This document shows, one piece after another, positions 34,089 through 55,292 of a stretch of 64,000 bases of DNA (positions are counted from its first letter, which is position 1; each line of letters starts with the position of its first letter). The DNA is taken from IMG/VR virus record IMGVR_UViG_3300031857_000034, positions 63,759-127,758 of that record; one strand, given 5' to 3'. The position numbers were made by a program, and so were the translations under genes. Under the pieces are notes generated by a model that was given only the letters and a program-made list of their open reading frames with translations, searched no databases and had not been told where the DNA came from. Source of the DNA: a virus.

Positions 34089-34562
34089 ATGAATAGCATA
34101 AACGAATTCAAAGCCTTTATTGGCCGAGAGTTTGTTTATAGGCATAATTTGATCAGCGTGATAAAAAATGGTGGACACTATCTTGTTCACAATCACGCTG
34201 AATTATCAAAACTTTACAATGGTCATGCCATCAAACTCGAAGGCCTAGAACGCTACTCTCGCGAGTTGGCTATAAAATGTGCTGGTTTGAAAATCATGTA
34301 TGATCATGTTGGGCCAGTGACTTGTCACGCTTACAGAGCCTTTCCGGGTTCGCAGAGTTTTGGCTCACACTCAGATCCCATGCCAGTATTTTTAGAAGTG
34401 ATTGAAGGCACCAAAAATATGATTGTGGACGGAGAATGGCGCACACTCACAGCAGGTGATACACTGTTGATTCCAGCCAATGTACCACATGAAGCTGTCA
34501 ACCAGGAAGACAGTCTCATGCTGAGTTTTGGCTTAGAATCTTACTTGATAGATTGTCAATGA
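34089..34562 (+). CDS. Cupin/JmjC-like (ROX/YcfD-type) oxygenase
   Basis: SFGSHSD...IEGTK...LTAGDTLLIPANVPHEA gives an HxD...H facial triad in a cupin fold. Confidence 0.75.
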   Translation: MNSINEFKAFIGREFVYRHNLISVIKNGGHYLVHNHAELSKLYNGHAIKLEGLERYSRELAIKCAGLKIMYDHVGPVTCHAYRAFPGSQSFGSHSDPMPVFLEVIEGTKNMIVDGEWRTLTAGDTLLIPANVPHEAVNQEDSLMLSFGLESYLIDCQ

Positions 34563-35626
34563 ATTATCTAAGTTATCTCAAGACCACTGAAACCTGTAAT
34601 TTAAATTGCCGGCATTGTTTTACATCTGGTACCCAAGGGCGTAAGATATTCTGGAATCCAGATCACGTGATTGATTTTTTCCAGCGTTTCCACCAGCACG
34701 TGGGCGCAGGGCACACCATGCACTATGAATTCCACGGTGGCGAACCATTTCTGGCCCCAGTGCAAGATATGATCCGTGTATATGATCAATTGCGTGATAC
34801 TTTTGATGTTGCTTCATTTGGCTGCACCAGTAATCTAACCTTTAAACTAAATCAAGACATTGAAGATTTCATCTTGGGTCCATTGGGTCGACGCATAGGC
34901 ACCAGTTGGGATCCGGCTATTAGATTTGCCAATGTTAGACAAGAATCATTGTGGCGCAGAAACGTTGAAAGGTTGCTGAGCCTAGGAGTGTCCATAAAAC
35001 TGTTTATCAGCGTCACACGGGATACTATCAATATAGAACCCATTGAACTGCTGCGCTGGGTGCGAGATTTAGGTGTTCAAGAAATGGATCTAGAACGCTT
35101 GACCAACAACGGCAATGCTAGACAGCATCCAGATATTTTCCCCCGAAATCTAGATCAGGATCAATGGTTTTTAAAAATGCACCGTCAGATACAGCAATAC
35201 GATGCAAGATCGTGGTTTGCCAATGAGTTCATGGAAAATATCTACAGCAAGTTCGAACGTAACATTACTGGAGCAGGAACTTTCTGCAGAGATTGCGAAC
35301 AAAAACTTTTTACCATCAATGCGGATGGAACAATAGGTGGCTGTCCCAATGCTGCGCCCGAAGAAAATTTTGGACATATTTCCATGGGCATACAAGATGT
35401 CCTGACCCACCCGCAGCGCATAAACAACATAGCCTGCGAATCGCACAGGAATACCCTGTGTTATGACTGTGATGTATTTGACAAATGCGGATCAGATTGT
35501 CATCAATTGAGCTGGCAAGGCGACGTTTGCGGTGCGCCCAAGAGCCTCATGCGAGAACTAAAGTATGGTACAGCCCAAGATTCCTACAAAATTCCCGCCA
35601 AAATGTTTAAAATAGTCCCAGTTTAA
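34559..35626 (+). CDS. Radical SAM/SPASM-domain protein
   Basis: CNLNCRHC motif, FHGGEP, and C-terminal CRDC..GCP..C..CYDCDVFDKCGSDC. The ATG at 34559 forms an ATGA overlap with the cupin stop. Confidence 0.92.
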   Translation: MNYLSYLKTTETCNLNCRHCFTSGTQGRKIFWNPDHVIDFFQRFHQHVGAGHTMHYEFHGGEPFLAPVQDMIRVYDQLRDTFDVASFGCTSNLTFKLNQDIEDFILGPLGRRIGTSWDPAIRFANVRQESLWRRNVERLLSLGVSIKLFISVTRDTINIEPIELLRWVRDLGVQEMDLERLTNNGNARQHPDIFPRNLDQDQWFLKMHRQIQQYDARSWFANEFMENIYSKFERNITGAGTFCRDCEQKLFTINADGTIGGCPNAAPEENFGHISMGIQDVLTHPQRINNIACESHRNTLCYDCDVFDKCGSDCHQLSWQGDVCGAPKSLMRELKYGTAQDSYKIPAKMFKIVPV

Positions 35627-35632
35627 ATTTTG

Positions 35633-35640
35633 TATAAATA
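35633..35640 (+). promoter_or_regulatory. T4-type late promoter TATAAATA
   Basis: Exact T4 late consensus, 5 nt upstream of the ATG at 35646. Confidence 0.7.
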
Positions 35641-35645
35641 GTATT

Positions 35646-36413
35646 ATGGCTCAATTACAGTCCGGATACATTATCAATGCTTCTAATCTCATCAGCGCTT
35701 TTGGCTATGATGCCGTCAGCGCCACTGGCCCACAGGGCAACGGCACCAGTGTAGCTTATGTGGCCAACAGCACAGTGAATTTTGCTGATGGCATTGCTTG
35801 GGGGCCTGCCTCGGGCACATTGCCCGCAAAATATCCCACAGGTGATACACAATGGATTGCTGTATTTGGCGGCAATGGAAGATCAGGTTCTTCAACAGGC
35901 AATGCCTGGGCCACCGCCAATGCTGTGCCCGGAGATTTTAAAAAAACATATCCAAGTGATCCCAGTGTAGATTATGTTATTTTTGCCAGCCACTATTCGG
36001 GCAACGGACTGCCCAGTTCAACTGCGGTGCTGTATCAATCGGCCAGGAATTTTTTAACTGTGAACTGGTGTAGAGCTACAAAAATCACCACTGGAGATAT
36101 TGCACCACCACCATCTGTGTACGGACCTTTCAAAGCAAGTTTTTCAACTGCACAATTTTCCTCCAGCTTTGTAAATCCTACCACTCCGCGCGGACACACT
36201 GACACAGATACATTTGATGGTAGCATTGCCAATGCCACCTATGCAGGAAATGAAAACACTGCCAATCCCACCAATAGAGAGGTCTGGGGTATCAATAACT
36301 ATTTCAACAGTCTTAAAAAATCTTTCAATAATAGACCCATCACTAATGTCAGTATAACAGTTTGTCACGCTCAGTGCCACTCCAGCTGCCATAACAGTCG
36401 CGGCAGGAGATAA
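35646..36413 (+). CDS. Protein A with C-terminal CHAQCHSSCHNSRGRR tail; putative radical-SAM substrate and virion protein
   Basis: 255 aa Gly/Ser/Thr/Asn-rich body ending in a (C-H-x-x)3 tail. Lies inside the rSAM cluster. Confidence 0.75.
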   Translation: MAQLQSGYIINASNLISAFGYDAVSATGPQGNGTSVAYVANSTVNFADGIAWGPASGTLPAKYPTGDTQWIAVFGGNGRSGSSTGNAWATANAVPGDFKKTYPSDPSVDYVIFASHYSGNGLPSSTAVLYQSARNFLTVNWCRATKITTGDIAPPPSVYGPFKASFSTAQFSSSFVNPTTPRGHTDTDTFDGSIANATYAGNENTANPTNREVWGINNYFNSLKKSFNNRPITNVSITVCHAQCHSSCHNSRGRR

Positions 36414-36415
36414 GC

Positions 36416-37159
36416 ATGACCATCTCCACCGGTGATTTAGTAAGATCACGAAATCCGGGCAATGCGCAAAGTATAATCCAGAGTTTTCTCAATGACTATT
36501 TGGCCAGTACCAATGCCAACAGTCCCAACAACAATGTGTTATTCTACACCGGTAGTTACCCTACCAGAACTGTGCCTGCAGCTTATCGAGCTGCAGCCAA
36601 TGCCTACTATGCCGGTTTAGGTATTTTTGCGCCTACATCAAATCAAGTGGCCAATGTGCTCACAGACAGCAACATTGCCAATGTTGGTGGGCAGATCATA
36701 TCTGCCACTGCCAATGTAAGTCTCACATATCCAGCCAGTGCGTCACAGGCCATATCTGCAGGCAACTTCTCAGGATTTAGCCAGATTTTTTACGGCGAAC
36801 TACAAAGATACCTTATCTATAGACGTGTACAGGCCATAACCGTAGTCACAGGTGATATAGCACCTGCAGGCACTTACACAGATTCAGGCAAGGCCTTGGT
36901 AACTTCTGGCTATGCATTATCCGCAGGTAACATAACCAATCCCGGCACTAATGTAAATTTCGCCACTGATCGTGTGATCAGTGCCAGCACAAATGGAACC
37001 TTGGGCGGGTCGGCAGCAGTGGCATTCAACACATATTGGGCTGCATTGATGAGCAATTGGTCCTCGGCATACACCGCTGCTGGCACTATATCAATGTCAT
37101 ACAGCACCTGTCATGCCCAGTGCCATTCCAGCTGCCACAATTCAAGAGGAAGAAGATAA
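36416..37159 (+). CDS. Protein B, paralogue of A, with the identical CHAQCHSSCHNSRGRR tail
   Basis: 247 aa. Shares TGDIAP, an NxYW/F helix and the 16-aa C-terminus with protein A. Confidence 0.75.
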   Translation: MTISTGDLVRSRNPGNAQSIIQSFLNDYLASTNANSPNNNVLFYTGSYPTRTVPAAYRAAANAYYAGLGIFAPTSNQVANVLTDSNIANVGGQIISATANVSLTYPASASQAISAGNFSGFSQIFYGELQRYLIYRRVQAITVVTGDIAPAGTYTDSGKALVTSGYALSAGNITNPGTNVNFATDRVISASTNGTLGGSAAVAFNTYWAALMSNWSSAYTAAGTISMSYSTCHAQCHSSCHNSRGRR

Positions 37160-37160
37160 A

Positions 37161-37892
37161 ATGTCAAATGTAATCACTACCACCGCACCCATATCATTGG
37201 AAAATTTGAAAATTTATTTCAGTGACAAATCCACTAGATATCTAATAGACTATAAAAATTCCAAACTGCAGGAACAAAAACTCCTAACTTATCTTGGTAA
37301 TTTGGATCTCAATTGCGATATAGACATTGAAGATTTTAACGATCCCGATCATGCCAAACTATTGCAAACCTACTTTGCCAGCACCACGCTGGTCAATATT
37401 CCCACGCTGGAACGTGCGGCCATGGGCGTGCTGTTTGAATACAAGGGCCTGATACAGCCAGGATATTTTACCAACTTCATACAGGAAAATATAGAATTGG
37501 TCAAATGCTGGGTACAGAAATTGGATAGCCTGGTTCTGTTCAACACCTATGCTATCAATGACGAACTAGCCAAACAAGAAGTCAAAAATTATCCGGAAGA
37601 TGACACAGACTCCATTGAAGGAATCAATTGGATAAGTCTATTGAAAAACGAAGAATTTTTCTATTTTTATCAGATCTTGGACGCATCTAATCTGCGATAC
37701 TACAGCCGCTATTTTAGTGAAAATATGTTCAAAGGGCGTAATCTTTACTCGTTCTGGGCCAATAACAACAATCCCATGTTTTTGATCACCTGGGGCATAT
37801 TAGAAGAAAAAATAAATAGTAAACAGTGGCAAGAATTGTTGAGTCAGGCCACACAAGAACTTAAGGAACAACAAGATGCTACATCTCTTTAA
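37161..37892 (+). CDS. Hypothetical protein of the rSAM cluster
   Basis: 243 aa. The likely start is the ATG at 37161, 1 nt after the protein B stop. No recognised motif. Confidence 0.65.
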   Translation: MSNVITTTAPISLENLKIYFSDKSTRYLIDYKNSKLQEQKLLTYLGNLDLNCDIDIEDFNDPDHAKLLQTYFASTTLVNIPTLERAAMGVLFEYKGLIQPGYFTNFIQENIELVKCWVQKLDSLVLFNTYAINDELAKQEVKNYPEDDTDSIEGINWISLLKNEEFFYFYQILDASNLRYYSRYFSENMFKGRNLYSFWANNNNPMFLITWGILEEKINSKQWQELLSQATQELKEQQDATSL

Positions 37893-38988
37893 AAGAGTAT
37901 ATCTAGCTTTAGATGAAACGCTGGATACCGCACAACATCGTGTGGTATTGAGTCAGGATTTTGGTCACCCAATGGGAGGTGAATTTGCCTCTGTTGGCCA
38001 ACTGCTAGATTACAATGAAAGCGTGGAAGGTGTGATTGGCGCCGGCAAAACCTATCCAGACTATCTGAGTTTCTTGAATTTCCTTGGATCAAAACAAGAC
38101 GAGTTAAATGCGCCAGTGACAGTGTACGCAGATCGAGACAGTTTTGTCAAAATAGGAACTAATTTTTTCCGTGCTGCATTGCCTTTGGCCACGGTCAAGG
38201 ACATCTATCAGATCTTGGCTTTCTACACTGTTAGACAAAGCCTGTTAAGTAGTAATGTTACATTCTCTAGTCCTGTTCAAAATCATGCACGCCTTAAAAA
38301 TAAAGCTGCCATTACAGAAGCCGAAGTATCTGCTGAATTTTTCAAGGGACAAACCAACCCTGTTGATTTCTATAGTTTTTTTGCTGAAAAAAGAGCCGAT
38401 CTAAGCATAGAATTTGTATTGGCAACATACAGTTACAATGGTCAATGCGAAGACATATTCAGTGAACAGATCAAAGGCTTTTGTATCAAGCACGCCTACT
38501 TGAGTGCGTTGGAAGCCAGAGAGCACATAGTTGACACGCTGACGTCAGAAAAAACCAAAAGCGTCTTGAATCTTTCGGATCGTCCAATTTTGGAAATGAT
38601 TGGAATTTTGCAGCAAGCCGAATCCACACGCTTGTTGTTTGACGATAGGTTTTTCCCAAGAGATGTTTCTACAGTTAGTTTTGATGCTAACTGGCGCAGA
38701 GTATCTGAATCTGAAATTGCCAAATTGTCAAAAACAGTGATCAAAGTTTTTAGAGATCTCAAAGGCTTGCCTTTGAACGAAGTACCCATTGGATTCTTCC
38801 CCGGCATAGAACACATCAATAATCCGGCACAATGGAGTCAGTATCGAGATCGTGTCATGGATGTTTTGCCATTTATTGCGTCTAGCGAGTCACATAAAAT
38901 CAATGCTACATTGTTTAATTACATAAACGACGCTAGAAAAAACAACCGTGAGTTACTGAGACCATTTGTCATCAACGGTTGCACCTGA
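37876..38988 (+). CDS. Hypothetical protein of the rSAM cluster
   Basis: 370-aa ORF overlapping the upstream gene. No confident motif. Confidence 0.65.
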   Translation: MLHLFKRVYLALDETLDTAQHRVVLSQDFGHPMGGEFASVGQLLDYNESVEGVIGAGKTYPDYLSFLNFLGSKQDELNAPVTVYADRDSFVKIGTNFFRAALPLATVKDIYQILAFYTVRQSLLSSNVTFSSPVQNHARLKNKAAITEAEVSAEFFKGQTNPVDFYSFFAEKRADLSIEFVLATYSYNGQCEDIFSEQIKGFCIKHAYLSALEAREHIVDTLTSEKTKSVLNLSDRPILEMIGILQQAESTRLLFDDRFFPRDVSTVSFDANWRRVSESEIAKLSKTVIKVFRDLKGLPLNEVPIGFFPGIEHINNPAQWSQYRDRVMDVLPFIASSESHKINATLFNYINDARKNNRELLRPFVINGCT

Positions 38989-39045: not shown

Positions 39046-40065
39046 ATGAGTGATCTAGACTTTTATAAAATCATTGAGAACAAAATCATCGACTATGTAG
39101 AAGTCGTGGTGCTGTTCTTTGAGCACTGCAATATGAAGTGTGTTTTTTGTCCTCAGAATCATGATGATACCACTGGCGCCAACAGAGATAGTATCATTGG
39201 CAAGTCTCAATTGGTAGTAGATTACATCAATACCAGTCCCAAGCAACAGTTTGTAATACATATCATGGGCGGAGAACTGTTCCAGGATCATTGGATCAAA
39301 CAAGGATTCATTGAGGTGTATCAGGAATTTATTGACACTGTAAAACACAATGTGGCCAGCGGAAAAACTGTAGATTTTCTTTTTGTTACCAATCTGGTGT
39401 ATGAACAAATTGACGCAGTCTTGGACTTTTGTCGCAACAATCAATTGACCATGAATGTAAGTTACGATCCGGCTGGTAGATTCAACGCACAGGAACTGGC
39501 ACTATTCAAACGCAACATTGAAAAGTTCCAACCCTATGTACATTTGATTTCAACTGTGATCACCCGACAAAACATCGAGAAAATTATAGCAGGTGATGCC
39601 TATTATGATTATCTGTATCAAACATTTGAAACAGATTGGGATCAACTTTTGCCTGGAAAGAATTTTAATCCAGCACTCATGCCTCGGGAAAGCCAGTTAT
39701 TAGAATACTATCGATTCATGATTGACAAGTATCCTCGCTGCAACAACATCGCGTACTTTCTCAATCAAAATCAACAAAAGAAAATGTCTTGTACTAGAGG
39801 CAGCAGCCACACTATCATGACAGATGGATCATCCCCCAAGGGCTGCAGCGGCACTGTGCTGTTAAAAGATCCCCGCAGCCAAGAACTTGGTTCTAGCAAG
39901 ATCATACAGATATTCTTGGAAGAAAAAGATTGTCTCAGTTGTGAGTTTTATTCACGTTGTAGTTTCACTTGCTTTATCAAGAACGAATACAAACATCTCA
40001 TAAGAGATGTAGATGGTTGTGTATTTGCAGAAGCGTTTAGATATGCAGATGCAAAAACAACATAA
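39046..40065 (+). CDS. Radical SAM protein with a Cys-rich SPASM/twitch-like C-terminus
   Basis: CNMKCVFC, MGGELF, and C-terminal SC..GC..CLSCEFYSRCSFTC. Confidence 0.9.
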   Translation: MSDLDFYKIIENKIIDYVEVVVLFFEHCNMKCVFCPQNHDDTTGANRDSIIGKSQLVVDYINTSPKQQFVIHIMGGELFQDHWIKQGFIEVYQEFIDTVKHNVASGKTVDFLFVTNLVYEQIDAVLDFCRNNQLTMNVSYDPAGRFNAQELALFKRNIEKFQPYVHLISTVITRQNIEKIIAGDAYYDYLYQTFETDWDQLLPGKNFNPALMPRESQLLEYYRFMIDKYPRCNNIAYFLNQNQQKKMSCTRGSSHTIMTDGSSPKGCSGTVLLKDPRSQELGSSKIIQIFLEEKDCLSCEFYSRCSFTCFIKNEYKHLIRDVDGCVFAEAFRYADAKTT

Positions 40066-41773
40066 TTCACTAACCCTGGCTTTTGTAAATCCACCCCATG
40101 CGGATTGGAGCCTGGCCAACAACGTCACTTACCTGCTGTGTCAAAGTCATTATCAGCGCAATGGCAAGTATGCTGATCGTGTCAAGTGGTTGCCGGCTCC
40201 TTACAAGTTCGATCGATATGAGACTTATAAAGAAGTCTATCAAGAAATTGCCCAAGCAGATGCGATCATGTTTAGCAGTTATGCTTGGAACTATACCATC
40301 TGTGATGAAATAGCCAAGATAGCCCAAGCACAAGGCAAGATAACTATCCTGGGCGGTCCGCACATTGGCACCAACGAACCAGAGTTTTTGGCCACCAGAA
40401 CCTACTATGATTATATTTGCCGCCCTACCAAGCCCGGCGAAACATTTATTGAAGACTTTATCAACAGTTATTTTGACAACCAAGGTCGGGCACGCAAAGC
40501 AGACATCAGTTGGGAATTGAACAGCGAACGAGAACGTTCATATCTCATAGACTATGACTACAGCGTCTACGAAGACCATTTGCCTTATCTGAGTGAAATA
40601 GTAGAATATGCCAGGTCCCAACGCATAGAGCCTTTTATAGTGCTAGAGTCCACTAGGGGTTGTCCATACAGTTGTGTGTTCTGTGAATGGGGCGGTGGCA
40701 TTGGCACTAAAATATACAAAAAATCAGAAGCAGTGGTCAAGCGAGACATCCTGGCGCTCAAAGCCGCGGGATTCCGCGATGCTTATCTCACCGATGCAAA
40801 CTTTGGTGTGTTCGAGCAACGTGATATAGAACTGTTTCGGTTTGCATGGCAAAACAAATTCAATCTCACAGACATCAGCACAGTAAAAAGTCGTGACCTC
40901 ACTAGAAGAAAACGATTAGTAGATGCTTGGTTTGATGTTGTGGGACGTGGTCCAGAAAGGCACAGTGCCAGCGAAGGGGGTACTGATATGTGGGGAGAGA
41001 CCGAGTTTATCAGTGTGGTGCCTACGGTCAGTATACAAAGCGTCAGCGACGAAGCCATGAAAGTGGCCAATCGTGTGGATCTTAGTTTAGAAGATAAAAT
41101 AGAACTCAGCAGACACATCAATCAACGCTGTAGAGAACAGGGCTTTCCTACTCCTGCCGTGGAATTGATCCTGGCCATGCCCGGGTCAACCATTGATGAT
41201 TTCTACACAGAATTTGAGATCATGTATAACTTCCAAGCGCGATCCACAGTGGGCAATAACAGCGGCTGGTCCAGTTTCAGACATGACTATATGTTTCTGC
41301 CCGATAGCGAACTCAACAGCGATGTTTATAAAATTAAATACAAGATCGAAACTGTAGAAGTCTACAGCGACATCATCGATGAAGACGGTGTAGACAATTG
41401 GAACAGCCTGTACAAAAACAAACGCACTTACTTTAAAACTATCAGGAGTTGCTATAGTTTTACCAGGGAAGAAATGTTAGAAATGTGGTTTATGAATCAA
41501 GCAGGACCTTATGTGTTAGAACATTTTTTTGATCCACTAAAAGACTATACAACACCCAAGGAGTGTGCTAGAATAGCCTACAAGGTTATCCAACAGTTGG
41601 ATGATTACGGCCCCATACATGATATGATAGCAGATATTTTCAATCCCGATACTGAACCGCGTAGCATAAGGAAATTAGGCAATAGGTTTAGGGTGCTTGT
41701 GATAGAGGAAATGTTGAACGCCAACAAACCTTTGATAATGAACGGAGTCATGAATCATGTATTACAACATTAA
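40043..41773 (+). CDS. Radical SAM protein with an N-terminal cobalamin-binding-like domain (class B-like)
   Basis: FSSYAWN...ILGGPH B12-type domain, ESTRGCPYSCVFCEWG, and DANFG. The start is uncertain (40013, 40043 or 40049). Confidence 0.85.
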   Translation: MQMQKQHNSLTLAFVNPPHADWSLANNVTYLLCQSHYQRNGKYADRVKWLPAPYKFDRYETYKEVYQEIAQADAIMFSSYAWNYTICDEIAKIAQAQGKITILGGPHIGTNEPEFLATRTYYDYICRPTKPGETFIEDFINSYFDNQGRARKADISWELNSERERSYLIDYDYSVYEDHLPYLSEIVEYARSQRIEPFIVLESTRGCPYSCVFCEWGGGIGTKIYKKSEAVVKRDILALKAAGFRDAYLTDANFGVFEQRDIELFRFAWQNKFNLTDISTVKSRDLTRRKRLVDAWFDVVGRGPERHSASEGGTDMWGETEFISVVPTVSIQSVSDEAMKVANRVDLSLEDKIELSRHINQRCREQGFPTPAVELILAMPGSTIDDFYTEFEIMYNFQARSTVGNNSGWSSFRHDYMFLPDSELNSDVYKIKYKIETVEVYSDIIDEDGVDNWNSLYKNKRTYFKTIRSCYSFTREEMLEMWFMNQAGPYVLEHFFDPLKDYTTPKECARIAYKVIQQLDDYGPIHDMIADIFNPDTEPRSIRKLGNRFRVLVIEEMLNANKPLIMNGVMNHVLQH

Positions 41774-42293
41774 AGATATCTATAGCAAAGGATTTGTACA
41801 ACTCAGTGAGCCCGACGCCTTGGCATTGATCAACATCGATGAATTCAAACTGTTGAATGTGGAAGAACGTGTTAGAGATAACGGCAAGCAAGATGTCAGT
41901 GCCGAACTGGCCAAGAGATTAGAAACCTTGGCTTTGTATTTGAAAACCAAGTACATAGATCCCGAATGGCCCGCGGCTGAATACAACAAGTTCATAGTTT
42001 GGGATGGCGTGGATCGTGACAATCAAGGTTGGCACACAGATATGTTTGAAAACTATGACATTTTCTTTTTGTATTATTTTGATGACACCCATGCTGAAAC
42101 AGGTGGCAGCATAAACTTCAAATGGGGAGTGTTACAAGGCCAGGAACAGACTGCCACATTCCAGCCCCGGGCAGGTGATGTTTTCATGGTCAATAATCTT
42201 CGCGGATTTTGGCACAGAGCCGATGATACAAAGATACGTCGACGAGTGGCCAGTTTTGATTTTTGTGTAGGATTGAAAAATGGAACTCAATGA
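41757..42293 (+). CDS. 2OG-Fe(II) oxygenase
   Basis: WHTD...GGSINF...FWHRA...RRV gives the HxD...H...R motif. Confidence 0.8.
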   Translation: MYYNIKDIYSKGFVQLSEPDALALINIDEFKLLNVEERVRDNGKQDVSAELAKRLETLALYLKTKYIDPEWPAAEYNKFIVWDGVDRDNQGWHTDMFENYDIFFLYYFDDTHAETGGSINFKWGVLQGQEQTATFQPRAGDVFMVNNLRGFWHRADDTKIRRRVASFDFCVGLKNGTQ

Positions 42294-42579
42294 ACTGTTA
42301 AAACTCAAACTAGAATATAGCAAAGAAAGAGATCTTTGCGCAGAGTTGTACAATGTCTGGATCACTAAACTACACGATTTCCAACACGATCCTGAACTGT
42401 ACGATATGTATATGCGCATGATCAACAACATGGAACCTTATGGTGCATATGTCAAAGAACGTATACGTGAAGTCAATAGGCAGATCTGCCAAATCAAAGG
42501 CGTCGACAGTATCGGTGACACTGAGTATGCTGCTGAATGTATCAACAAATATGGATTTGAACAGCCAAATGCTGAATGA
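42280..42579 (+). CDS. Hypothetical helical protein (99 aa)
   Basis: Overlapping, co-oriented ORF inside the cluster. Confidence 0.6.
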   Translation: MELNELLKLKLEYSKERDLCAELYNVWITKLHDFQHDPELYDMYMRMINNMEPYGAYVKERIREVNRQICQIKGVDSIGDTEYAAECINKYGFEQPNAE

Positions 42580-42662: not shown

Positions 42663-43736
42663 ATGGATCTAATTATCAAACCAACTGAGAGTTGCAATTT
42701 CAAATGTACGTTTTGCTCCAGTACCAACATCACCGACGACAAAAGTGCTGAACTTGGGCACGATCAAATTTTTAGATTTCTTGAACGTTTTCCTGACACC
42801 AAAACAATCATAGTCAACGGTGGCGATCCACTCATGATGTCGCCAGCATACTACTGGAAGATCATTGACTGGTTGGACTTACATGAGTATGATACCTCTA
42901 TTAGTTTTACCACTAATCTTTGGCCATTTTACAAGAATCCCCAAAAGTGGGTAGATCTATTCAATCATGAGCGTATGGGCATAACCACCAGCTTCCAATA
43001 TGGTGGAGGACGTCTCAAAGGTGATCTTACCCCATTTTCAGAAGAAGACTTTTGGAAATGCAGCGACGCCATGCTACGCTATTGTGGATATAGGCCAGAC
43101 TTTATCACAGTAATAACCGAAGAAAATGCAGATCGTGCTCTCGACAATGTGAGACTGGCCAAGAAGATGAACGTGGAGTGCAAGTTAAACTATGCCTTTA
43201 GTTCGGGACCTCCTGTGAAGTTTCGTAACATCATCATGGGCCAGCAAGGTCGTCCTTTTGTACTGGCAGATATCTACGAGATATATCTCGAAATCTGGCG
43301 ACAAGAATTATATCCTTGGGAACACAGTACCAAGACCATGATGAAACGACTGCGCGGTGAAGCAACCATATGTCCACAAAACAGAGATTGTGATGCAGGT
43401 ATTAGGACTCTACAGCCATCCGGAGATTACTACAGTTGCGGAGCCTTTGGCGACGACAAAGAATATGCTATAGATTTTGAGCAAGAGATGAATAGCAAAA
43501 AAATAATCAGGATACTGAAAGATCAACCCGATCTTCAGACTCTCAAGCAGAGTTGTTATAGTTGCCCTATGTTTGATATCTGCAATGGTTGTCGCAAAAC
43601 CATAACCGATCTCAAACGGTACAATTTGGTCGAACGCCATTGTAGTAAAATGAAAACTCTTGCTGCCGACATCATTGAAGCCAATGGTGTGGACTTGGAA
43701 CCAACAGAATATGTAAAAGAATATGAGACAGCGTAG
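42663..43736 (+). CDS. Radical SAM/SPASM-domain protein (anSME/peptide-maturase-like)
   Basis: LIIKPTESCNFKCTFC, NGGDP, and C-terminal CP..C..YSC..CYSCPMFDICNGC..C. GAGG RBS upstream. Confidence 0.92.
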   Translation: MDLIIKPTESCNFKCTFCSSTNITDDKSAELGHDQIFRFLERFPDTKTIIVNGGDPLMMSPAYYWKIIDWLDLHEYDTSISFTTNLWPFYKNPQKWVDLFNHERMGITTSFQYGGGRLKGDLTPFSEEDFWKCSDAMLRYCGYRPDFITVITEENADRALDNVRLAKKMNVECKLNYAFSSGPPVKFRNIIMGQQGRPFVLADIYEIYLEIWRQELYPWEHSTKTMMKRLRGEATICPQNRDCDAGIRTLQPSGDYYSCGAFGDDKEYAIDFEQEMNSKKIIRILKDQPDLQTLKQSCYSCPMFDICNGCRKTITDLKRYNLVERHCSKMKTLAADIIEANGVDLEPTEYVKEYETA

Positions 43737-43773
43737 TGAAACTAAGTAAAAATACAGGTTACGAGTATCTTTT

Positions 43774-44583
43774 ATGTCAAATCAACCAATACTAATAGCT
43801 GGCGGCGATAGTTTCACCTATGGATTAGATCTACTGGATTGTAATCCCAGTAACAATTTCAGCTATAGTCTGAACACGTGGCCTGCTTTGCTTAGTAAGT
43901 CATTGAATCGCCAGTATGTTTGTGCAGCTTATCCAGGTAATAGCAACTCTGCGATTGCTAGAAAAACTATTTTGGCCTGTGAGCAAAATCGGGCACAAGA
44001 TATTTTTGTAGTGGTAAGCTGGTCTTTTTTGAATCGCATAGAATTTAAATTTACTATCGATCCAATGAGTAAACCTTATGATGCAAAGACAGATCCCGAA
44101 GGATACGCTCTAGGGCCACACGGGCCTTGGCGCAGTGTTAACAGTAAGGATCTTTATCCTGGACCAGATGAATCAAAGCAAAAAATATTTACACACCTTG
44201 ACAAGGATATCATAAAGTTTCTTAGAGACTACTATAGGTATGTTGGTAGCGATGATGTATATGAATATTACTGCACTGTGAAAGAGATTGTGTTTTTACA
44301 GAACTACCTTAAACTAAACAGCATTCCATATATGTTTACGTCGGCTCACTCTTTTTTCCGTAAAACTTTTGATGATCCCAGCGTGAATTGCTTGATTAAC
44401 ATGATTGATCAAGATCCGTGGTTTTTTTATCCTCCATTGAAAGGTTTCGTAGAGTGGGCCAGAGACAACGGTTATGCCCGCCGAGACGAACATTTCACAG
44501 AAGAGGCTCACGCAGATGCTTTTAAACTTGTAAGAGATTACCTCAATGAGAAAAATCAAGCGTATTATCCAAAAGCTGCTTAA
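43774..44583 (+). CDS. SGNH/GDSL-like hydrolase-fold protein
   Basis: GGDSFTYG block I, AYPGNSN block II, and C-terminal DEHF...H. Confidence 0.65.
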   Translation: MSNQPILIAGGDSFTYGLDLLDCNPSNNFSYSLNTWPALLSKSLNRQYVCAAYPGNSNSAIARKTILACEQNRAQDIFVVVSWSFLNRIEFKFTIDPMSKPYDAKTDPEGYALGPHGPWRSVNSKDLYPGPDESKQKIFTHLDKDIIKFLRDYYRYVGSDDVYEYYCTVKEIVFLQNYLKLNSIPYMFTSAHSFFRKTFDDPSVNCLINMIDQDPWFFYPPLKGFVEWARDNGYARRDEHFTEEAHADAFKLVRDYLNEKNQAYYPKAA

Positions 44584-44644
44584 CGAATTGCGTTATAGAC
44601 GCAAGATCAGACAGAGCAGGAAACAAGATCCTTACATATATTGA
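44546..44644 (+). CDS. Small basic peptide MRKIKRIIQKLLNELRYRRKIRQSRKQDPYIY (32 aa)
   Basis: Read directly from the sequence (below the ORF-track cutoff). Amphipathic basic helix ending in DPYIY. Confidence 0.5.
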   Translation: MRKIKRIIQKLLNELRYRRKIRQSRKQDPYIY

Positions 44645-44728
44645 TTAGTATATCAGTGATCATTGGTAGTGGCTTATGCTGCCCAAATACCTTTGATCTG
44701 CCTCGAGCGGTCGCTAAATATCTTACCT

Positions 44729-45646
44729 ATGAACATATCCCTTAATCCTTGGTATTATTGTAACTTCCGTTGCAAATTTTGTTATCTAACAGAAGGACAG
44801 TTGTCTAGTCAAAAATTAATCAAACTTGATAAATTGGAGTCTAGATTACAAGAAGTTGTAGCACATTATGGCATCATTGATCAGATTGATGTCTACGGCG
44901 GCGAAGTGGCCCTGCTGCCTAAACAGTACTTTGAAGACATGACTGTGATTTTGAAACGATACTGCAAAAATCTCAACATGATAACAAACCTTAGCGCAGT
45001 AAACCAAATCACCGAAGATCCTAACTATTCTCTCAGTGTCAGTTACGACTTCAGCGCCAGAGAAAAATATGATTTGGTTTACAAGAACATGACCATGATT
45101 TCTTCGGATTTCAGCGTGCTCATGCTGGCCAGTCCGCACTTGATCACACTGGATCCCAACTACATGATCAATATGTTCAATCTCATACCTAATCTACGTT
45201 CAGTAGAAATCAAACCCTATAGTCGCAATCAGGCCAATGATCTCCAGATAACCGACAAAGATTTTGAAAACTATGTGATACGCTGGCTCACCGCTGCCAC
45301 GCCAAAAAAATTCCAGTTTGTCAACGCCGCCCTTATACAACAGGTATTAGACGGGCAAGGACACAGTTACAGTGATGATCACGTGTATATTACTCCCAGC
45401 GGTAGATTTGCTGTGTTGGAATTTGACATCAATGATCGCGAGTATTTCTTAGAAATGGATTCCATTGAAGAATATCAACAATGGTGTGAACGAGAAAAAC
45501 AACGTGTTAGTGTGAACGAATACTGCCGTGATTGCGAATTCCACGGACGCTGTCTAAGCGAACACTTGCGTGAAGTGCGAGATATATCCATGAGTTGCAA
45601 TGGATACAAACATCTCATACAGTGGTATGCTCGCCAGTACACTTGA
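44729..45646 (+). CDS. Radical SAM protein with a short Cys-rich C-terminus
   Basis: NPWYYCNFRCKFC, YGGE, and CRDCEFHGRC..SCNG. The ATG at 44729 follows TAAATA at 44715. Confidence 0.9.
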   Translation: MNISLNPWYYCNFRCKFCYLTEGQLSSQKLIKLDKLESRLQEVVAHYGIIDQIDVYGGEVALLPKQYFEDMTVILKRYCKNLNMITNLSAVNQITEDPNYSLSVSYDFSAREKYDLVYKNMTMISSDFSVLMLASPHLITLDPNYMINMFNLIPNLRSVEIKPYSRNQANDLQITDKDFENYVIRWLTAATPKKFQFVNAALIQQVLDGQGHSYSDDHVYITPSGRFAVLEFDINDREYFLEMDSIEEYQQWCEREKQRVSVNEYCRDCEFHGRCLSEHLREVRDISMSCNGYKHLIQWYARQYT

Positions 45647-46040
45647 TATCATGAAAGAGTGGAAAGTAAGACAGGAAGTATATCACAGACTTACCAAAGA
45701 ACACGGTGACGATCTAAATCAGTTTGACATTGAAATAGTCACTGATGTTGTGTCAACTGCTGTGAAGTATTTTACTGAGCAGGAAGTTGGATGGTTATAT
45801 CCTGGTAAAAGTTATGCAGTTGCTGTCTTATATGCTCGATGGTTGAATCAAGAATTTGGTGAAGATTTTTTAACTGTGCTAGATGATCCTGATCTGCTGT
45901 ACGGCAATGATCCTTACTTTGTTCCCTACAGTCAAGACAAAGAAACCTACATCAAGATCATTGCGGCCTTGCCCAATAACATGGATCAAGGAATGATACC
46001 CGACATAAGAAACTATTTTGAAAGAGAATTCATGCTATGA
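45627..46040 (+). CDS. Hypothetical protein of the rSAM cluster
   Basis: Co-oriented overlapping ORF (YPGKSYAVA...DPDLLYGNDPYFVPY). Start uncertain (45600, 45627 or 45651). Confidence 0.6.
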   Translation: MLASTLDIMKEWKVRQEVYHRLTKEHGDDLNQFDIEIVTDVVSTAVKYFTEQEVGWLYPGKSYAVAVLYARWLNQEFGEDFLTVLDDPDLLYGNDPYFVPYSQDKETYIKIIAALPNNMDQGMIPDIRNYFEREFML

Positions 46041-46624
46041 ATCCAGGAATGAATCTACTGTATCCAACACCTGTGCAGTATACAACCATGAAGAATGATC
46101 ACATACGTCAGCAGGTAGTGGATGCGCTGATGGTCAATGTAGATTTTGCCAAGCCAACCGAAGAAATTTATGAGGAGAACATCTTGGATCTCAATCTACC
46201 TGAACTTGATCAATGGATCGATCAAGAAGTATATCCTGCTTTTGATCAGTATCTTGTAGATACCATTGACAAACATATCACAGACTTCCAAACCTATAAG
46301 TTTAAATCATGGCTTACTGGAAATCAAGGAAATTATCATTTGATCCTGCACAATCACAGTGGTAGTCATTACAGTGGTGTGTTTTATCTGTTGGCCGAAG
46401 AATCCACCCAAGGAGGACAGTTGATATTCTGCGATCCTAGATCTAACGCCAATCGAGGCTATGATAATAAACAAAAACAAAAACAATTTGATTATACTCG
46501 CATACAGCCTCGAACTGGCGATGTTTACATATTTCCCAGTTTCTTGTACCATTTTGTGATGCCTTATGCAGGAACGCTAAGGCTATGTGTGCCGGTGGAT
46601 CTATTTCTCTTTGACGAATCGTAA
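46037..46624 (+). CDS. Putative 2OG-Fe(II) oxygenase (phage-type, HxH...SGVFY...FPSFLYH)
   Basis: LHNHSGSHYSGVFYL...GGQLIFCDPR...IFPSFLYHFV..R. Confidence 0.8.
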   Translation: MNPGMNLLYPTPVQYTTMKNDHIRQQVVDALMVNVDFAKPTEEIYEENILDLNLPELDQWIDQEVYPAFDQYLVDTIDKHITDFQTYKFKSWLTGNQGNYHLILHNHSGSHYSGVFYLLAEESTQGGQLIFCDPRSNANRGYDNKQKQKQFDYTRIQPRTGDVYIFPSFLYHFVMPYAGTLRLCVPVDLFLFDES

Positions 46625-55291: not shown

Positions 55292-55292
55292 T

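What the first reader, a model, noticed from the sequence alone, without database searches (positions are those of the whole stretch)
34089..46624. Candidate undescribed system: phage RiPP-like maturation cluster (5 radical SAM + 3 oxygenases) acting on two late proteins with a CHxxCHxxCH tail
Seen: directly after the tail-fibre gene, a co-oriented and mostly translationally coupled 12.5 kb block encodes four rSAM enzymes with Cys-rich SPASM/twitch-like C-termini, one B12-type rSAM, a JmjC/cupin, two 2OG-Fe(II) oxygenases, an SGNH-like protein and four unknowns. It encloses two ~250-aa proteins ending in CHAQCHSSCHNSRGRR. Established: rSAM-SPASM enzymes cross-link Cys-rich CxxxCxxxC cores (SCIFF/ranthipeptides, sactipeptides) and His-x-x motifs (His-Xaa-Ser and triceptide systems); class B rSAMs methylate; ROX/JmjC enzymes hydroxylate His and Arg. 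Inference: the phage installs a heavily modified peptide on the C-terminus of full-size, probably virion-associated proteins, with a folded structural domain taking the place of a leader. Possible roles are a receptor-binding tip, a metal site, cross-linking or a delivered effector. I do not know of a characterised example.
Basis: partly seen in the sequence, partly recalled or inferred. Interest (0 to 1): 0.95.

Follow-up and report, generated by a model that had tools for sequence, protein, structure and literature searches.

The report
Radical-SAM cassette for Cys-His-tailed proteins
Behind its tail-fibre gene this freshwater jumbo phage carries a widespread, unstudied set of iron-sulfur and iron-oxygenase enzymes that most likely modify the invariant Cys-His-x-Ser tail of two small folded proteins.

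Summary
Window 34089-46624 holds 15 co-oriented genes: five radical SAM (rSAM) enzymes (four SPASM-type, one B12-type), a JmjC-like cupin, two 2OG oxygenases, an SGNH-like protein, four unknowns, and two paralogues (255 and 247 aa) that both end in CHAQCHSSCHNSRGRR.

This is one copy of a large conserved cassette. The tail consensus is hydrophobic-(C-H-x-S)x3-R-G-R-R-COOH. It ends an ORF in 115 of 117 motif-seeded viral loci and in 31 of 35 full-flank loci seeded with one rSAM enzyme. It occurs 0 times in a reversed-sequence control.

The same gene order occurs in Ralstonia RSL2, Agrobacterium Atu_ph07 and Pseudomonas DT01 jumbo phages. It usually lies about 1.5 kb behind a self-cleaving tail-fibre gene. 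The cassette also sits in chromosomes of some Bdellovibrionota, so it is not confined to phages.

Best reading (0.6): the tail is the substrate of the rSAM and oxygenase set, and the product is probably particle-associated. No modification has been shown.

The closest characterised analogue is the bacterial HXS antiphage system of 2026. Every HXS membership test failed. My paper searches found no description of this cassette.

This scan had already found the same cassette on at least eight other stretches of DNA.

The parts
31050..31655 (+). Conserved fibre-module protein (context, not an enzyme of the cassette)
   Evidence: phrog_11259, E 2.8e-76. 54% identical to Atu_ph07 gp177, which holds the same position there.
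31681..34086 (+). Tail fibre with a C-terminal self-cleaving intramolecular-chaperone (IMC) domain. It is the usual upstream neighbour of the cassette.
   Evidence: Pfam Peptidase_G2 IMC domain scores 24.9 bits against a cut-off of 25, over residues 662-735. There are tail-fibre PHROG hits. It is 46% identical to the C-terminus of Atu_ph07 gp176. An HMM built from residues 641-801 finds such a fibre ORF ending within 6 kb upstream, on the same strand, of the tail-motif ORF in 43 of 53 and 45 of 61 viral loci with room.
34089..34562 (+). Cupin / JmjC-like Fe(II) oxygenase
   Evidence: Cupin_2 44.9 bits (cut-off 27.2) and JmjC_2 36.7 bits (cut-off 22). 37% identical to RSL2 ORF066 and DT01 gp67, which hold the same position.
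34553..35626 (+). rSAM1, SPASM-type radical SAM enzyme, directly upstream of the tail-motif proteins
   Evidence: CNLNCRHC motif at the N-terminus and a CxxCx5Cx3C block at the C-terminus. phrog_1802, E 4e-62. Best NCBIfam hit is PapB at 46.8 bits against a cut-off of 340. 43-49% identical to RSL2 ORF067 and Atu_ph07 gp171. Present in 35 of 35 full-flank loci.
35646..36413 (+). Tail-motif protein A (255 aa). The tail CHAQCHSSCHNSRGRR is encoded at 36363-36410.
   Evidence: Translation. There are 23 homologues at 45-98% identity. The tail Cys, His and RGRR residues are invariant in all 17 aligned sequences. No Pfam or NCBIfam family.
36416..37159 (+). Tail-motif protein B (247 aa). The tail CHAQCHSSCHNSRGRR is encoded at 37109-37156.
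   Evidence: Translation. The AF2 model built from a 90-sequence family alignment has pLDDT 76.5 and pTM 0.72, with an alpha/beta body and a low-confidence tail. No known fold match was found.
37161..37892 (+). Conserved unknown protein that follows the tail-motif gene(s). An alternative start lies at 37113.
   Evidence: phrog_20767, E 4e-58. Homologues are RSL2 ORF070, Atu_ph07 gp169 and DT01 gp64. Present in 32 of 35 full-flank loci. No Pfam or NCBIfam family.
37876..38988 (+). Unknown protein, an accessory member of the cassette
   Evidence: No family found. Homologues in 9 of 35 full-flank loci.
39046..40065 (+). rSAM2, SPASM-type radical SAM enzyme
   Evidence: CNMKCVFC motif. Seven Cys are invariant across 27 family members. 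Best NCBIfam hit is HxsB at 30.4 bits against a cut-off of 370. Present in 34 of 35 loci.
40013..41773 (+). B12-binding-domain radical SAM enzyme (class-B-like), accessory
   Evidence: Pfam B12-binding 27.3 bits (cut-off 32.1) and Radical_SAM 25.0 bits (cut-off 29.5). NCBIfam KedN5 family 78.6 bits against a cut-off of 700. CPYSCVFC motif. Present in 11 of 35 loci.
41757..42293 (+). 2OG-Fe(II) oxygenase-like protein, accessory
   Evidence: 2OG-FeII_Oxy_3 scores 23.7 bits, below the cut-off of 27. Present in 16 of 35 loci.
42280..42579 (+). Small unknown protein (99 aa), accessory
   Evidence: Only a weak TetR_C_27 hit below cut-off. Present in 4 of 35 loci.
42663..43736 (+). rSAM3, the most conserved SPASM radical SAM enzyme of the cassette
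   Evidence: Pfam Radical_SAM 34.5 bits (passes 29.5). NCBIfam SPASM domain 28.2 bits (passes 27). 58-62% identical to RSL2 ORF075, Atu_ph07 gp165 and DT01 gp60. There are 252 relatives in IMG/VR.
43774..44583 (+). SGNH/GDSL-like or DUF6071-like protein. It is an insertion and not part of the conserved cassette.
   Evidence: Only sub-threshold Pfam hits. Found in 0 of 80 and 0 of 117 loci by tblastn and in 0 of 35 full-flank loci.
44663..45646 (+). rSAM4, radical SAM enzyme with a shorter Cys-rich (twitch/SPASM-like) C-terminus
   Evidence: CNFRCKFC motif and a C-terminal CRDCEFHGRC...C block. Pfam Radical_SAM 29.0 bits against 29.5. 44-54% identical to RSL2 ORF077, DT01 gp59 and Atu_ph07 gp164. 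Present in 34 of 35 loci.
45600..46040 (+). Conserved small unknown protein that follows rSAM4
   Evidence: phrog_20737, E 4e-50. 46% identical to RSL2 ORF081. Present in 31 of 35 loci. No NCBIfam family.
46037..46624 (+). 2OG-Fe(II) oxygenase, the last gene before the strand switch
   Evidence: 2OG-FeII_Oxy_5 62.1 bits (cut-off 27). phrog_81. Present in 23 of 35 loci. The next gene, 46851-47531, is a thymidylate synthase on the minus strand.

Best explanation
This is one copy of a conserved, horizontally mobile cassette. It matures the C-terminal tail of a small folded protein. Here that protein is present as two paralogues, A and B.

Shown:
- The tail hydrophobic-(Cys-His-x-Ser)x3-Arg-Gly-Arg-Arg-COOH is almost invariant, while the protein bodies diverge beyond BLAST recognition.
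- The tail always travels with four core SPASM-type radical SAM enzymes and two conserved unknown proteins.
- It usually also travels with a JmjC-like cupin and 2OG oxygenases.
- In phages it sits directly behind a self-cleaving tail-fibre gene.

Inferred:
- The exposed tail is the substrate.
- The rSAM enzymes install carbon-carbon and/or carbon-sulfur cross-links on the His-x-Ser units and the Cys residues.
- The Fe(II) oxygenases hydroxylate His or Arg residues.
- In this phage the B12-type rSAM adds a methyl group.
- None of the rSAM enzymes has an N-terminal leader-binding domain, so one of the conserved unknowns (37161-37892 or 45600-46040) probably presents the tail to the enzymes, as HxsD does for HxsC.
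- The matured protein most likely joins the virus particle at or near the fibre. I cannot tell whether the finished tail serves as an anchor, a metal or cross-link site, or an envelope- or DNA-engaging tip.
For: Synteny across unrelated phages.
- The order cupin, rSAM1, tail protein, unknown, rSAM2, rSAM3, rSAM4, oxygenases, small unknown recurs in RSL2, Atu_ph07 and DT01.
- Enzyme identities there are 30-62%, whereas only the tail of A finds a match in the phage collection by tblastn.

Co-occurrence starting from an enzyme.
- 64 of 80 rSAM3-seeded IMG/VR loci hold a tail ORF. Among loci with full flanks the figure is 31 of 35.
- In those 35 loci, rSAM1 is present in 35, rSAM2 in 34, rSAM4 in 34, and the two unknowns in 32 and 31.

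Co-occurrence starting from the motif.
- 115 of 117 motif-seeded loci put the pattern at an ORF end.
- 56 of 81 loci with room have an rSAM1 homologue directly upstream, and 63 of 90 have the conserved unknown downstream.
- In one of those misses that I read in full (L168), the layout is a fibre gene, two 126-127-aa tail proteins and five divergent rSAM genes. At least 13 of the 25 misses are tandem-pair loci of the same short class.

Tail conservation over 145 unique ORFs.
- Ser at position -13 in 136 of 145, Ser or Asn at -9 in 143, Ser at -5 in 130, and Gly at -3 in 128.
- Cys, His and Arg could not vary in that set, because the search patterns fixed them or allowed only near-equivalents (the DNA pattern, the pattern in the scripts). 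In the homologues of A, which were found through the whole protein, they are invariant in 17 of 17.
- A and B keep identical tails through 9 of 16 synonymous codon changes.

The enzymes are of the maturase type.
- Seven Cys are invariant in the C-terminal half of rSAM2 and of rSAM3.
- Their NCBIfam hits are almost all peptide or protein maturases: PapB, DynA, QhpD-type, HxsB/C, anSME.

The chemistry has precedents.
- Triceptide synthases link His-C2 to the C-beta of the third residue in aromatic-X-X motifs (PMC11499958, passages read).
- HxsB/C mature the His-x-Ser protein HxsA (PMC13128918, abstract and sections 9-10 read).
- CrpC puts thioethers on the whole protein CrpA (PMC13692751, abstract read).

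Structure. The body of B folds at pLDDT 76.5, while its last 17 residues average 56-65.

Particle link.
- A fibre ORF lies upstream in 43 of 53 and 45 of 61 viral loci.
- The Atu_ph07 paper names 'CDS 170-215' as one of three clusters encoding most of the 131 virion proteins (PMC6102473, section 29 read). gp170 is the tail protein of Atu_ph07.
Against: No mass shift, cross-link or virion detection of any tail protein was seen by me.

Every specific rSAM family test fails by a wide margin, for example 30-50 bits against cut-offs of 268-450. The family hits are spread over many maturase types and over non-maturases such as viperin and MoaA. The sequence therefore does not predict the chemistry.

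Four of the five rSAM genes score under the Pfam Radical_SAM cut-off.

Pfam found no leader-recognition (PqqD-like) domain, protease or exporter in any cassette protein.

4 of 35 full-flank loci lack the strict tail, and 25 of 81 motif loci lack a recognisable rSAM1 directly upstream.

In genome-derived loci, which are mostly Bdellovibrionota, the fibre link holds in only 4 of 24.

Oxygen-labile rSAM enzymes and oxygen-requiring Fe(II) oxygenases would have to act on the same tail.

RSL2 ORF068 carries no virion label in its record, although its neighbours ORF057 and ORF065 do.

The model of A alone was unusable, at pLDDT 33.
Confidence: 0.6

Rival explanations
1. The tail is a metal or iron-sulfur binding site and not an enzyme substrate. 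Three Cys and three His per chain (nine of each if the protein is trimeric) would hold Zn, Fe or an Fe-S cluster. A and B would then be metalloproteins of the fibre, or cluster or electron donors for the rSAM enzymes, and the enzymes would act on something else.
For: The regular Cys-His spacing and the invariance of Cys and His in homologues found through the whole protein (17 of 17). The tail has no confident structure on its own, as expected for a site that orders only on metal binding. From memory, not from any call: phage fibres and spikes often hold Fe or Zn on His residues along the threefold axis.
Against: Metal binding does not explain why Ser at the fourth position of each unit, Gly at -3 and the terminal R-G-R-R are as conserved as they are. 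Those features fit an enzyme recognition motif. It also leaves four to eight co-inherited SPASM maturase-like enzymes without a candidate substrate in the cassette.
Confidence: 0.12
2. It is a true RiPP pathway. The folded body would be an unusually large leader, and the 16-residue tail would be modified, cut off and released as a small bioactive peptide, for example against the host or competitors.
For: The core lies at the C-terminus and the maturases are SPASM-type, as in many RiPP clusters. The body evolves fast while the tail is fixed.
Against: No protease, exporter or immunity gene was recognised in the cassette. The body has a conserved folded core. It has 124-364 residues. The cassette is tied to a fibre gene and, in Atu_ph07, begins a virion-protein gene cluster (PMC6102473, section 29).
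Confidence: 0.1
3. The enzymes modify the neighbouring fibre or another virion protein. The tail proteins would be assembly chaperones or scaffolds and would not themselves be modified.
For: A fibre gene lies directly upstream in most phage loci, and the Halobacteriovoraceae chromosomal cassette holds a Peptidase_S74 fibre gene.
Against: In a MAFFT alignment of 90 tail-protein sequences, which is very gappy (767 columns), the only fully invariant columns are Cys, His and Arg positions of the tail. The fibre link is weak in the genome-derived loci, at 4 of 24. The window's fibre carries no comparable Cys/His motif (read).
Confidence: 0.08

Closest known systems
HXS antiphage system (HxsA effector matured by the rSAM enzymes HxsB and HxsC with the small partner HxsD; Nat Commun 2026, PMC13128918; abstract and sections 9-10 read)
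   Same: In both, a whole folded protein rather than a short peptide carries tandem His-x-Ser units in a basic context and is encoded beside SPASM/rSAM enzymes and small partner proteins. HxsB and HxsC are among the weak NCBIfam hits of rSAM2 and rSAM3. Both systems concern the passage of phage through the Gram-negative envelope.
   Different: All membership tests fail. A and B hit no NCBIfam family. The HxsB and HxsC scores are 30 and 28 bits against cut-offs of 370 and 268. No HxsD-like protein was found. The unit here is Cys-His-x-Ser, repeated three times, at the extreme C-terminus and followed by RGRR. There are four to eight rSAM enzymes plus Fe(II) oxygenases, not two rSAM enzymes. The carriers are phages and Bdellovibrionota, not Pseudomonadota defence islands. 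The gene order differs, and the tail proteins show no obvious signal peptide.
Triceptides, made by three-residue cyclophane-forming rSAM/SPASM enzymes (HaaB, HtkB, YhhB, XyeB, FxsB; PMC11499958, passages read)
   Same: The substrate motif is aromatic-X-X with His as the aromatic residue. The tail holds three such His-x-Ser units, and the enzymes are SPASM-type.
   Different: Triceptide precursors are short peptides. The scores against YhhB, XyeB, FxsB and GrrM are far below cut-off, and only 1 to 9 of 27 members match at all. The invariant Cys before each His has no counterpart in triceptides.
Ranthipeptide-type thioether maturation, including the protein substrate CrpA modified by CrpC (PMC13692751, abstract read) and the PapB family
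   Same: SPASM rSAM enzymes act on regularly spaced Cys residues. CrpA shows that a full protein can be the substrate. PapB is the best NCBIfam hit of rSAM1 and matches 13 of 27 rSAM2-family members.
   Different: The PapB score is 46.8 bits against a cut-off of 340. The spacing and partner residues differ. The cassette has several different rSAM enzymes and also oxygenases.
Bdellovibrio mosaic adhesive trimer fibres (PMC10769870; search listing and start of abstract only)
   Same: These are phage-fibre-like proteins in predatory bacteria. The Halobacteriovoraceae cassette includes a 413-aa protein with a Peptidase_S74 chaperone domain.
   Different: That paper holds no occurrence of 'radical SAM' (listing). 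I did not test any link between its fibres and this cassette.

Membership tests
HXS antiphage system | HxsA-type effector (peptidoglycan-binding domain plus five His-x-Ser repeats) | tested here: not met
   A and B hit no NCBIfam family at E <= 0.01 and no Pfam family at E <= 0.1. They do carry three His-x-Ser units, each preceded by Cys, at the C-terminus.
HXS antiphage system | HxsB and HxsC equivalogs (NCBIfam TIGR03978 and TIGR03977 above cut-off) | tested here: not met
   The best HxsB score is 30.4 bits against 370 (39046), and the best HxsC score is 28.4 bits against 267.9 (42663). Only 5 of 27 rSAM2-family members hit HxsB at E <= 0.001. 20 of 27 rSAM3-family members hit HxsC, alongside many other families.
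HXS antiphage system | HxsD partner and the gene order HxsD-B-C-A | tested here: not met
   None of the four unknown proteins of the window matches any NCBIfam family above noise. The gene order here is different.
Radical SAM superfamily | CxxxCxxC cluster motif (recalled definition) and the Pfam PF04055 cut-off | tested here: met
   All five genes show CxxxCxxC. PF04055 is passed only by 42663, at 34.5 bits against 29.5. The others score 14.7-29.0 bits. All four short rSAM enzymes hit phrog_1802 'radical SAM domain-containing protein' at E 1e-24 to 4e-62.
SPASM subfamily of rSAM enzymes | C-terminal seven-Cys auxiliary-cluster domain (NCBIfam TIGR04085, cut-off 27) | tested here: met
   42663 scores 28.2 bits and passes. 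34553 scores 23.8 bits and falls below. Seven C-terminal Cys are invariant in the rSAM2 and rSAM3 family alignments. 21 of 27 rSAM3-family members match TIGR04085. rSAM4 has fewer Cys, which makes it twitch-like.
Classical RiPP pathway | Short precursor with a leader, a leader-recognition (RRE/PqqD-like) domain, and a leader protease or exporter | tested here: not met
   The putative precursors have 124-364 residues and a folded body. The rSAM motif starts within about 35 residues of each N-terminus, which leaves no room for an N-terminal RRE. Pfam recognised no PqqD-like domain, protease or transporter in any cassette protein.
Triceptide synthases (3-residue cyclophane-forming enzymes) | Maturase scoring above the XyeB, YhhB, FxsB or GrrM family cut-off, with an aromatic-X-X motif in the substrate | tested here: not met
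   The substrate motif is present, as His-x-Ser three times. The enzyme scores are 16-24 bits against cut-offs of 310-450.
Anaerobic sulfatase-maturating enzyme (anSME) | NCBIfam TIGR03942 cut-off of 349 | tested here: not met
   The best score is 39.5 bits, from 42663. anSME is the only solved structure found by sequence search, at 29 bits.
Class B (cobalamin-dependent) rSAM methyltransferases | N-terminal B12-binding domain plus rSAM core, scoring above family cut-offs | tested here: inconclusive
   B12-binding scores 27.3 bits against 32.1, Radical_SAM 25.0 against 29.5, and KedN5 78.6 against 700. The domain architecture fits but the scores are sub-threshold.
JmjC / cupin Fe(II) oxygenases | Pfam JmjC_2 or Cupin_2 above cut-off | tested here: met
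   34089 scores 36.7 bits on JmjC_2 (cut-off 22) and 44.9 bits on Cupin_2 (cut-off 27.2). The cupin of the Halobacteriovoraceae cassette scores 32.3 bits on JmjC_2. No substrate was tested.
2OG-Fe(II) oxygenases | Pfam family cut-off | tested here: met
   46037 scores 62.1 bits on 2OG-FeII_Oxy_5 (cut-off 27). 41757 reaches only 23.7 bits against 27.

The most novel reading that the evidence does not exclude
The matured (Cys-His-x-Ser)x3-RGRR tail could be a chemically cross-linked, basic device carried on the attack apparatus of agents that breach Gram-negative envelopes, namely jumbo phages, T4-like phages and some Bdellovibrio-like predators. In that case rSAM chemistry would be building part of a virion, which would be the first radical-SAM post-translational modification of a virus-particle protein. 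It would also be the offensive counterpart of the bacterial HXS defence, whose rSAM-matured His-x-Ser effector blocks phage DNA in the periplasm.
Probability: 0.2. Interest if true: 0.9.

Novelty: new variant of a known kind. Interest (0 to 1): 0.8.

Why it matters
Radical SAM maturation is known mainly for small peptides. Only in 2026 was it shown for whole proteins, with HxsA and CrpA.

This cassette would extend that chemistry to a probably particle-associated phage protein. It is very common.

It would explain why some jumbo phages carry four to eight rSAM genes inside their fibre modules. Genome papers have remarked on this as unusual without offering an explanation (PMC12390700, PMC8541153).

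The presence of the same cassette in predatory bacteria points to a shared tool for attacking Gram-negative cells.

The question can be tested directly, because cultured phages with the cassette exist.

Tried and rejected
AF2 model of protein A from 17 close homologues: pLDDT 33, unusable.

Fold searches with the model of B. Foldseek against PDB gave no match at E <= 0.001. BFVD returned only unnamed proteins; rank 6 is an Atu_ph07 protein of 296 residues, the length of gp170 (E 0.11), and rank 2 has 178 residues, the length of DT01 gp65. VIA-align wide gave a best Z of 4.2. No known fold was recognised, which does not show that the fold is new.

Complex prediction of B with the conserved unknown 37161-37892: no verdict, score 0.01. 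This is not evidence either way.

ESM Atlas gave nothing usable for 37161-37892 or 45600-46040.

PDB sequence searches: none for rSAM1, anSME at 29 bits for rSAM3, and generic cupins for 34089.

Megablast of the whole cassette against phage records found no match. tblastn of a typical tail protein (L209) against phage records found no match, possibly because of BLAST's low-complexity filter.

I rejected a specific kinship of rSAM2 and rSAM3 with HxsB/C. Across 27 members of each family the hits are spread over many maturase families.

I rejected the late-promoter reading of TATAAATA: 1 match against 2.0 expected by chance.

The look-up of sequencing runs listed no RNA holder. I did not lay any reads.

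They may bear directly on the particle claim.

The original RSL2 genome paper (Virology 2016) was not found in the library. I saw it only as a reference.

Paper searches that found no description of the cassette or its tail motif.

I considered heme attachment (CX3CH-like spacing) and formylglycine formation (Cys followed four residues later by Arg). Both motif resemblances are recalled from memory, and no call supports them.

Full report
What is in the window.

From 34089 to 46624 there are 15 co-oriented + strand ORFs. They follow directly after an 801-aa fibre gene (31681-34086), and most overlap or are separated by a few bases. The block ends at a strand switch: the next gene, 46851-47531 on the minus strand, is a thymidylate synthase.

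Pfam, NCBIfam and PHROGs give the following:
- A cupin with a JmjC_2 match (34089).
- Four short rSAM enzymes (34553, 39046, 42663, 44663) with CxxxCxxC near the N-terminus and Cys-rich C-termini.
- One rSAM enzyme with a B12-binding-like N-terminal domain (40013).
- Two 2OG-type oxygenases (41757, sub-threshold; 46037, clear).
- A weak SGNH/DUF6071-like protein (43774).
- Four ORFs without any family (37161/37113-37892, 37876-38988, 42280-42579, 45600-46040).

Two ORFs, A (35646-36413, 255 aa) and B (36416-37159, 247 aa), both end in CHAQCHSSCHNSRGRR. Their bodies are 30% identical over 165 residues. The two tails are identical in protein sequence while 9 of their 16 codons differ.

The window is the second half of a 127,758-base virus record. 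The baseplate wedge protein and the genes just upstream of the cassette resemble those of Agrobacterium phage Atu_ph07 and Sinorhizobium phage Phosso. Near-identical DNA occurs in 20 runs from 15 studies. They are labelled lake water or freshwater metagenome, and some 'fungus metagenome'. Six are flagged as possible sources of this DNA.

It is one copy of a conserved cassette.

tblastn of A against phage records matched only through its last 29 residues, in Ralstonia and Burkholderia jumbo phages. In RSL2 that hit is ORF068. It sits in the order ORF066 (cupin), ORF067 (rSAM), ORF068 (tail ...CHSSCHTSCHGSRGRR), unknowns, then ORF072, ORF075 and ORF077 (rSAM), oxygenases and ORF081. Each of these is homologous to the window gene in the same position.

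The same arrangement is found in Atu_ph07 (gp172 to gp164, with tail protein gp170 ending ...CHSSCHASCHNSRSRR) and in Pseudomonas phage pPa_SNUABM_DT01 (gp67 to gp54, with tail protein gp65 ending ...CHTSCHTSCHSARGRR). rSAM3 is 58-62% identical across these phages, although they belong to different jumbo-phage lineages.

How strong is the association?

Seeding with rSAM3 in IMG/VR gave 252 relatives, of which 80 were kept.
- 64 of the 80 contain an ORF ending in the strict tail.
- Among the 35 loci with full flanks of 10 kb on each side, 31 contain it.
- In those 35, rSAM1 occurs in 35, rSAM2 in 34, rSAM4 in 34, the 37161-like unknown in 32, the 45600-like unknown in 31, the 46037-like oxygenase in 23, the cupin in 18 (a short protein, so the blastp count is a lower bound), the 41757-like oxygenase in 16, the B12 rSAM in 11, the 37876-like protein in 9, the 42280-like protein in 4, and the SGNH-like gene in 0.

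- In 115 of the 117 the pattern lies at the end of an ORF.
- 56 of 81 loci with room have an rSAM1 homologue directly upstream, and 63 of 90 have the conserved unknown downstream.
- At least 13 of the 25 misses are loci with two tail patterns about 385 bases apart, the class of 124-140-aa tail proteins in tandem pairs. In the one I read fully (L168), the layout is a 1,537-aa fibre with the same C-terminal chaperone region, two tail proteins, and five divergent rSAM genes with two unknowns. The association therefore holds in that locus too.

The strict tail occurs 0 times in reversed sequences of the 197 loci.

The tail and the body.

Over 145 unique complete ORFs the consensus is hydrophobic-C-H-x-S-C-H-x-S/N-C-H-x-S-R-G-R-R-COOH.
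- Cys, His and Arg could not vary in that set, because the search patterns fixed them or allowed only near-equivalents. In homologues of A, which were found through the whole protein, they are invariant in 17 of 17.
- The positions that were free to vary are also conserved: Ser at -13 in 136 of 145, Ser or Asn at -9 in 143, Ser at -5 in 130, Gly at -3 in 128.
- The unit is therefore Cys-His-x-Ser repeated three times, which contains three His-x-Ser triplets.

The bodies range from 124 to 364 residues. By BLAST they fall into one cluster of 102, one of 37, and singletons, and A and B are among the singletons. An alignment of 90 sequences shows shared landmarks, including a nearly invariant Pro and a nearly invariant Arg in a central helix.

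With that alignment, AF2 models B at pLDDT 76.5 and pTM 0.72 as an alpha/beta domain. A final strand leads into a tail that averages 56-65. I found no known fold relative.

The body is thus a real, fast-evolving domain, and the tail is an exposed, fixed appendage. This is what one expects if the enzymes read the tail and the body does something specific to the host.

The enzymes.

None of the four short rSAM enzymes has room for an N-terminal leader-binding domain, because the cluster motif begins at residue 11-35.

rSAM2 and rSAM3 each have seven invariant C-terminal Cys, and rSAM3 passes the NCBIfam SPASM cut-off. All specific family scores are far below cut-off. The best hits are PapB (rSAM1, 46.8 against 340), HxsB (rSAM2, 30.4 against 370), DynA and anSME (rSAM3, 49.5 against 450 and 39.5 against 349), and viperin (rSAM4, 40.4 against 180).

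Scanning 27 members of the rSAM2 and rSAM3 families one by one spreads the hits over many maturase families.
- rSAM2 family: PapB 13, viperin 13, QhpD-type 9, HxsB 5.
- rSAM3 family: SPASM domain 21, HxsC 20, DynA 18, anSME 15, with MoaA and NirJ also matching.

I conclude that these are SPASM maturase-like enzymes of families not yet described, and that the sequence does not say which bonds they make.

The cupin passes the JmjC_2 cut-off. This is the family of protein Arg and His hydroxylases, which I state from memory of the family's description.

Link to the fibre and to the particle.

An HMM built from the C-terminal 161 residues of the window's fibre finds a fibre ORF ending within 6 kb upstream, on the same strand, of the tail ORF in 43 of 53 rSAM3-seeded and 45 of 61 motif-seeded viral loci with at least 3 kb of upstream sequence. 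The median gap is 1.5 kb, which is the length of cupin plus rSAM1.

[quoted passage not shown] The paper's gene numbering agrees with the record for the tail sheath (gp140) and the baseplate wedge (gp181). CDS 170 is therefore the tail protein, and it is the first gene of a virion-protein cluster.

I could not see the list itself, which is in a closed supplement, so this is suggestive and not proof. In the RSL2 record the tail protein is a 'hypothetical protein', while ORF057 and ORF065 are labelled virion structural proteins.

Not only phages.

The same DNA pattern in one genome per prokaryote species gave 47 stretches. 39 have a genuine tail ORF, and 33 of those 39 have at least one cassette homologue in the same locus of 8 kb or less.

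27 of the 39 lie in records named as Bdellovibrionota lineages. Three of these contigs are 1.29, 2.45 and 2.84 Mb long.
- I read 40 kb around two of them. In the Halobacteriovoraceae contig the cassette holds the tail protein, the conserved unknown, five rSAM-like genes, two 2OG oxygenases and a JmjC cupin. It also includes a 413-aa protein with a Peptidase_S74 chaperone domain. The cassette has no other phage genes that I recognised.
- In the Bacteriovoracaceae contig the cassette is flanked by a DinG-like helicase, matrixin-like peptidases and signal peptidase II. It encloses a 2,355-aa RCC1/Big_2 repeat protein.
- The tail proteins there show no obvious signal peptide.

The cassette is rare within the phylum. 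An rSAM3 homologue at E <= 1e-40 was found in 10 of 301 sampled genomes, and four of those ten were the genomes I had started from.

The remaining 12 genuine hits are in bins of other taxa. Several are on contigs of 3-250 kb and may be phage DNA binned with cells. I did not test this.

What it most likely does.

The parsimonious reading is that the tail is the substrate. It is the only invariant element, it is exposed, it is built from a thrice-repeated unit, and it is inherited together with a fixed set of maturase-type enzymes.

Published chemistry offers two bond types that fit.
- His-C2 to C-beta links on aromatic-X-X motifs, made by triceptide synthases (PMC11499958).
- Cys thioethers made by SPASM enzymes, including on a whole protein (PMC13692751).

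The HXS system shows rSAM maturation of a His-x-Ser protein, with a +8 Da change on a SHRSS motif (PMC13128918).

Which enzyme makes which bond, and what the oxygenases and the B12 enzyme add, is inference only. So is the role of the finished protein. Its position and the Atu_ph07 sentence favour a particle protein near the fibre.

Rivals are a metal or Fe-S site, a released small peptide, and enzymes that act on the fibre itself. They are scored in their own section.

Comparison and novelty.

The closest characterised system is HXS, but every membership feature that I could test fails.

Genome papers mention the rSAM genes in these phages only as a curiosity.
- 'Highly unusual' in Aeromonas phage 332-Vera, which has eight rSAM genes inside the fibre cluster (PMC12390700).
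- Lists of genes in FLC6 (PMC8066314), RP12/RP31 (PMC5468394) and DT01 (PMC8541153).
- Twelve rSAM genes in a marine T4-like genome (PMC5332604).

For each of these I read the matching passages only. Eight searches of the paper library found no description of the tail motif or of the cassette as a system. The library does not include most subscription journals.

I file the cassette as a new variant of a known kind, namely rSAM maturation of a ribosomally made protein.

Earlier reports of this same scan found the cassette on at least eight other stretches of DNA and reached similar conclusions. I reached the HXS and Bdellovibrionota points before reading them. I took from them the lead to check the Atu_ph07 proteome.

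What is particular to this window.
- There are two diverged tail proteins in tandem with identical tails. None of the 31 tail-bearing full-flank loci has two, although tandem pairs are the rule in the 124-140-aa class.
- It carries the accessory B12-type rSAM.
- It has an inserted SGNH-like gene seen in no other locus.
- The G+C content of the cassette is somewhat lower than that of its surroundings: 0.40-0.44 against 0.45-0.49.

Noticed in passing
window 12786-30887 (+): There is a single 6,033-aa ORF between the baseplate wedge gene (9307-12783) and the fibre module. Atu_ph07 has a 13.3-kb 'virion structural protein' gene (gp180) in the same position.
   Followed up: no
window 52809-57034 (-): A run of minus-strand genes includes an aminotransferase (phrog_3139) and a nucleotide-sugar epimerase (phrog_540). 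It looks like a phage-borne sugar-modification operon.
   Followed up: no
window 34001-46000: The cassette has lower G+C (0.40-0.44) than the structural genes before it and the genes after it (0.45-0.49). This fits a horizontally acquired block.
   Followed up: no
L079, about 8130-8186 (+): In one rSAM3-seeded locus the tail ORF reads CHYSCHSSCHG and then continues with a Gly/Pro-rich extension in place of S-R-G-R-R. This is either a variant or a frameshifted tail.
   Followed up: no
L234 3207-6395 (+): A 249-kb contig binned as 'Bacilli bacterium' carries three tandem paralogues of the rSAM2 type plus rSAM3, rSAM4 and a 226-aa tail protein. Contigs of 223-249 kb in the other bins (L239, L242) may likewise be jumbo-phage genomes binned with cells.
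   Followed up: no
L249 2866-9933 (-), Bacteriovoracaceae chromosome: A 2,355-aa RCC1-repeat / Big_2 protein sits inside the chromosomal cassette, between the rSAM genes and the tail protein.
   Followed up: partly
window 34089-39000: Near-identical DNA (at least 90% of sampled words) occurs in 20 public runs from 15 studies dated 2017-2025. They are labelled lake water or freshwater metagenome, and some 'fungus metagenome'. Six are flagged as possible sources. The phage appears to be a recurrent freshwater phage.
   Followed up: partly
window 49049-50326 (-) and 50760-51851 (-): An HNH endonuclease (phrog_1314) and an ATPase (phrog_1297) lie downstream of the cassette on the opposite strand.
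   Followed up: no
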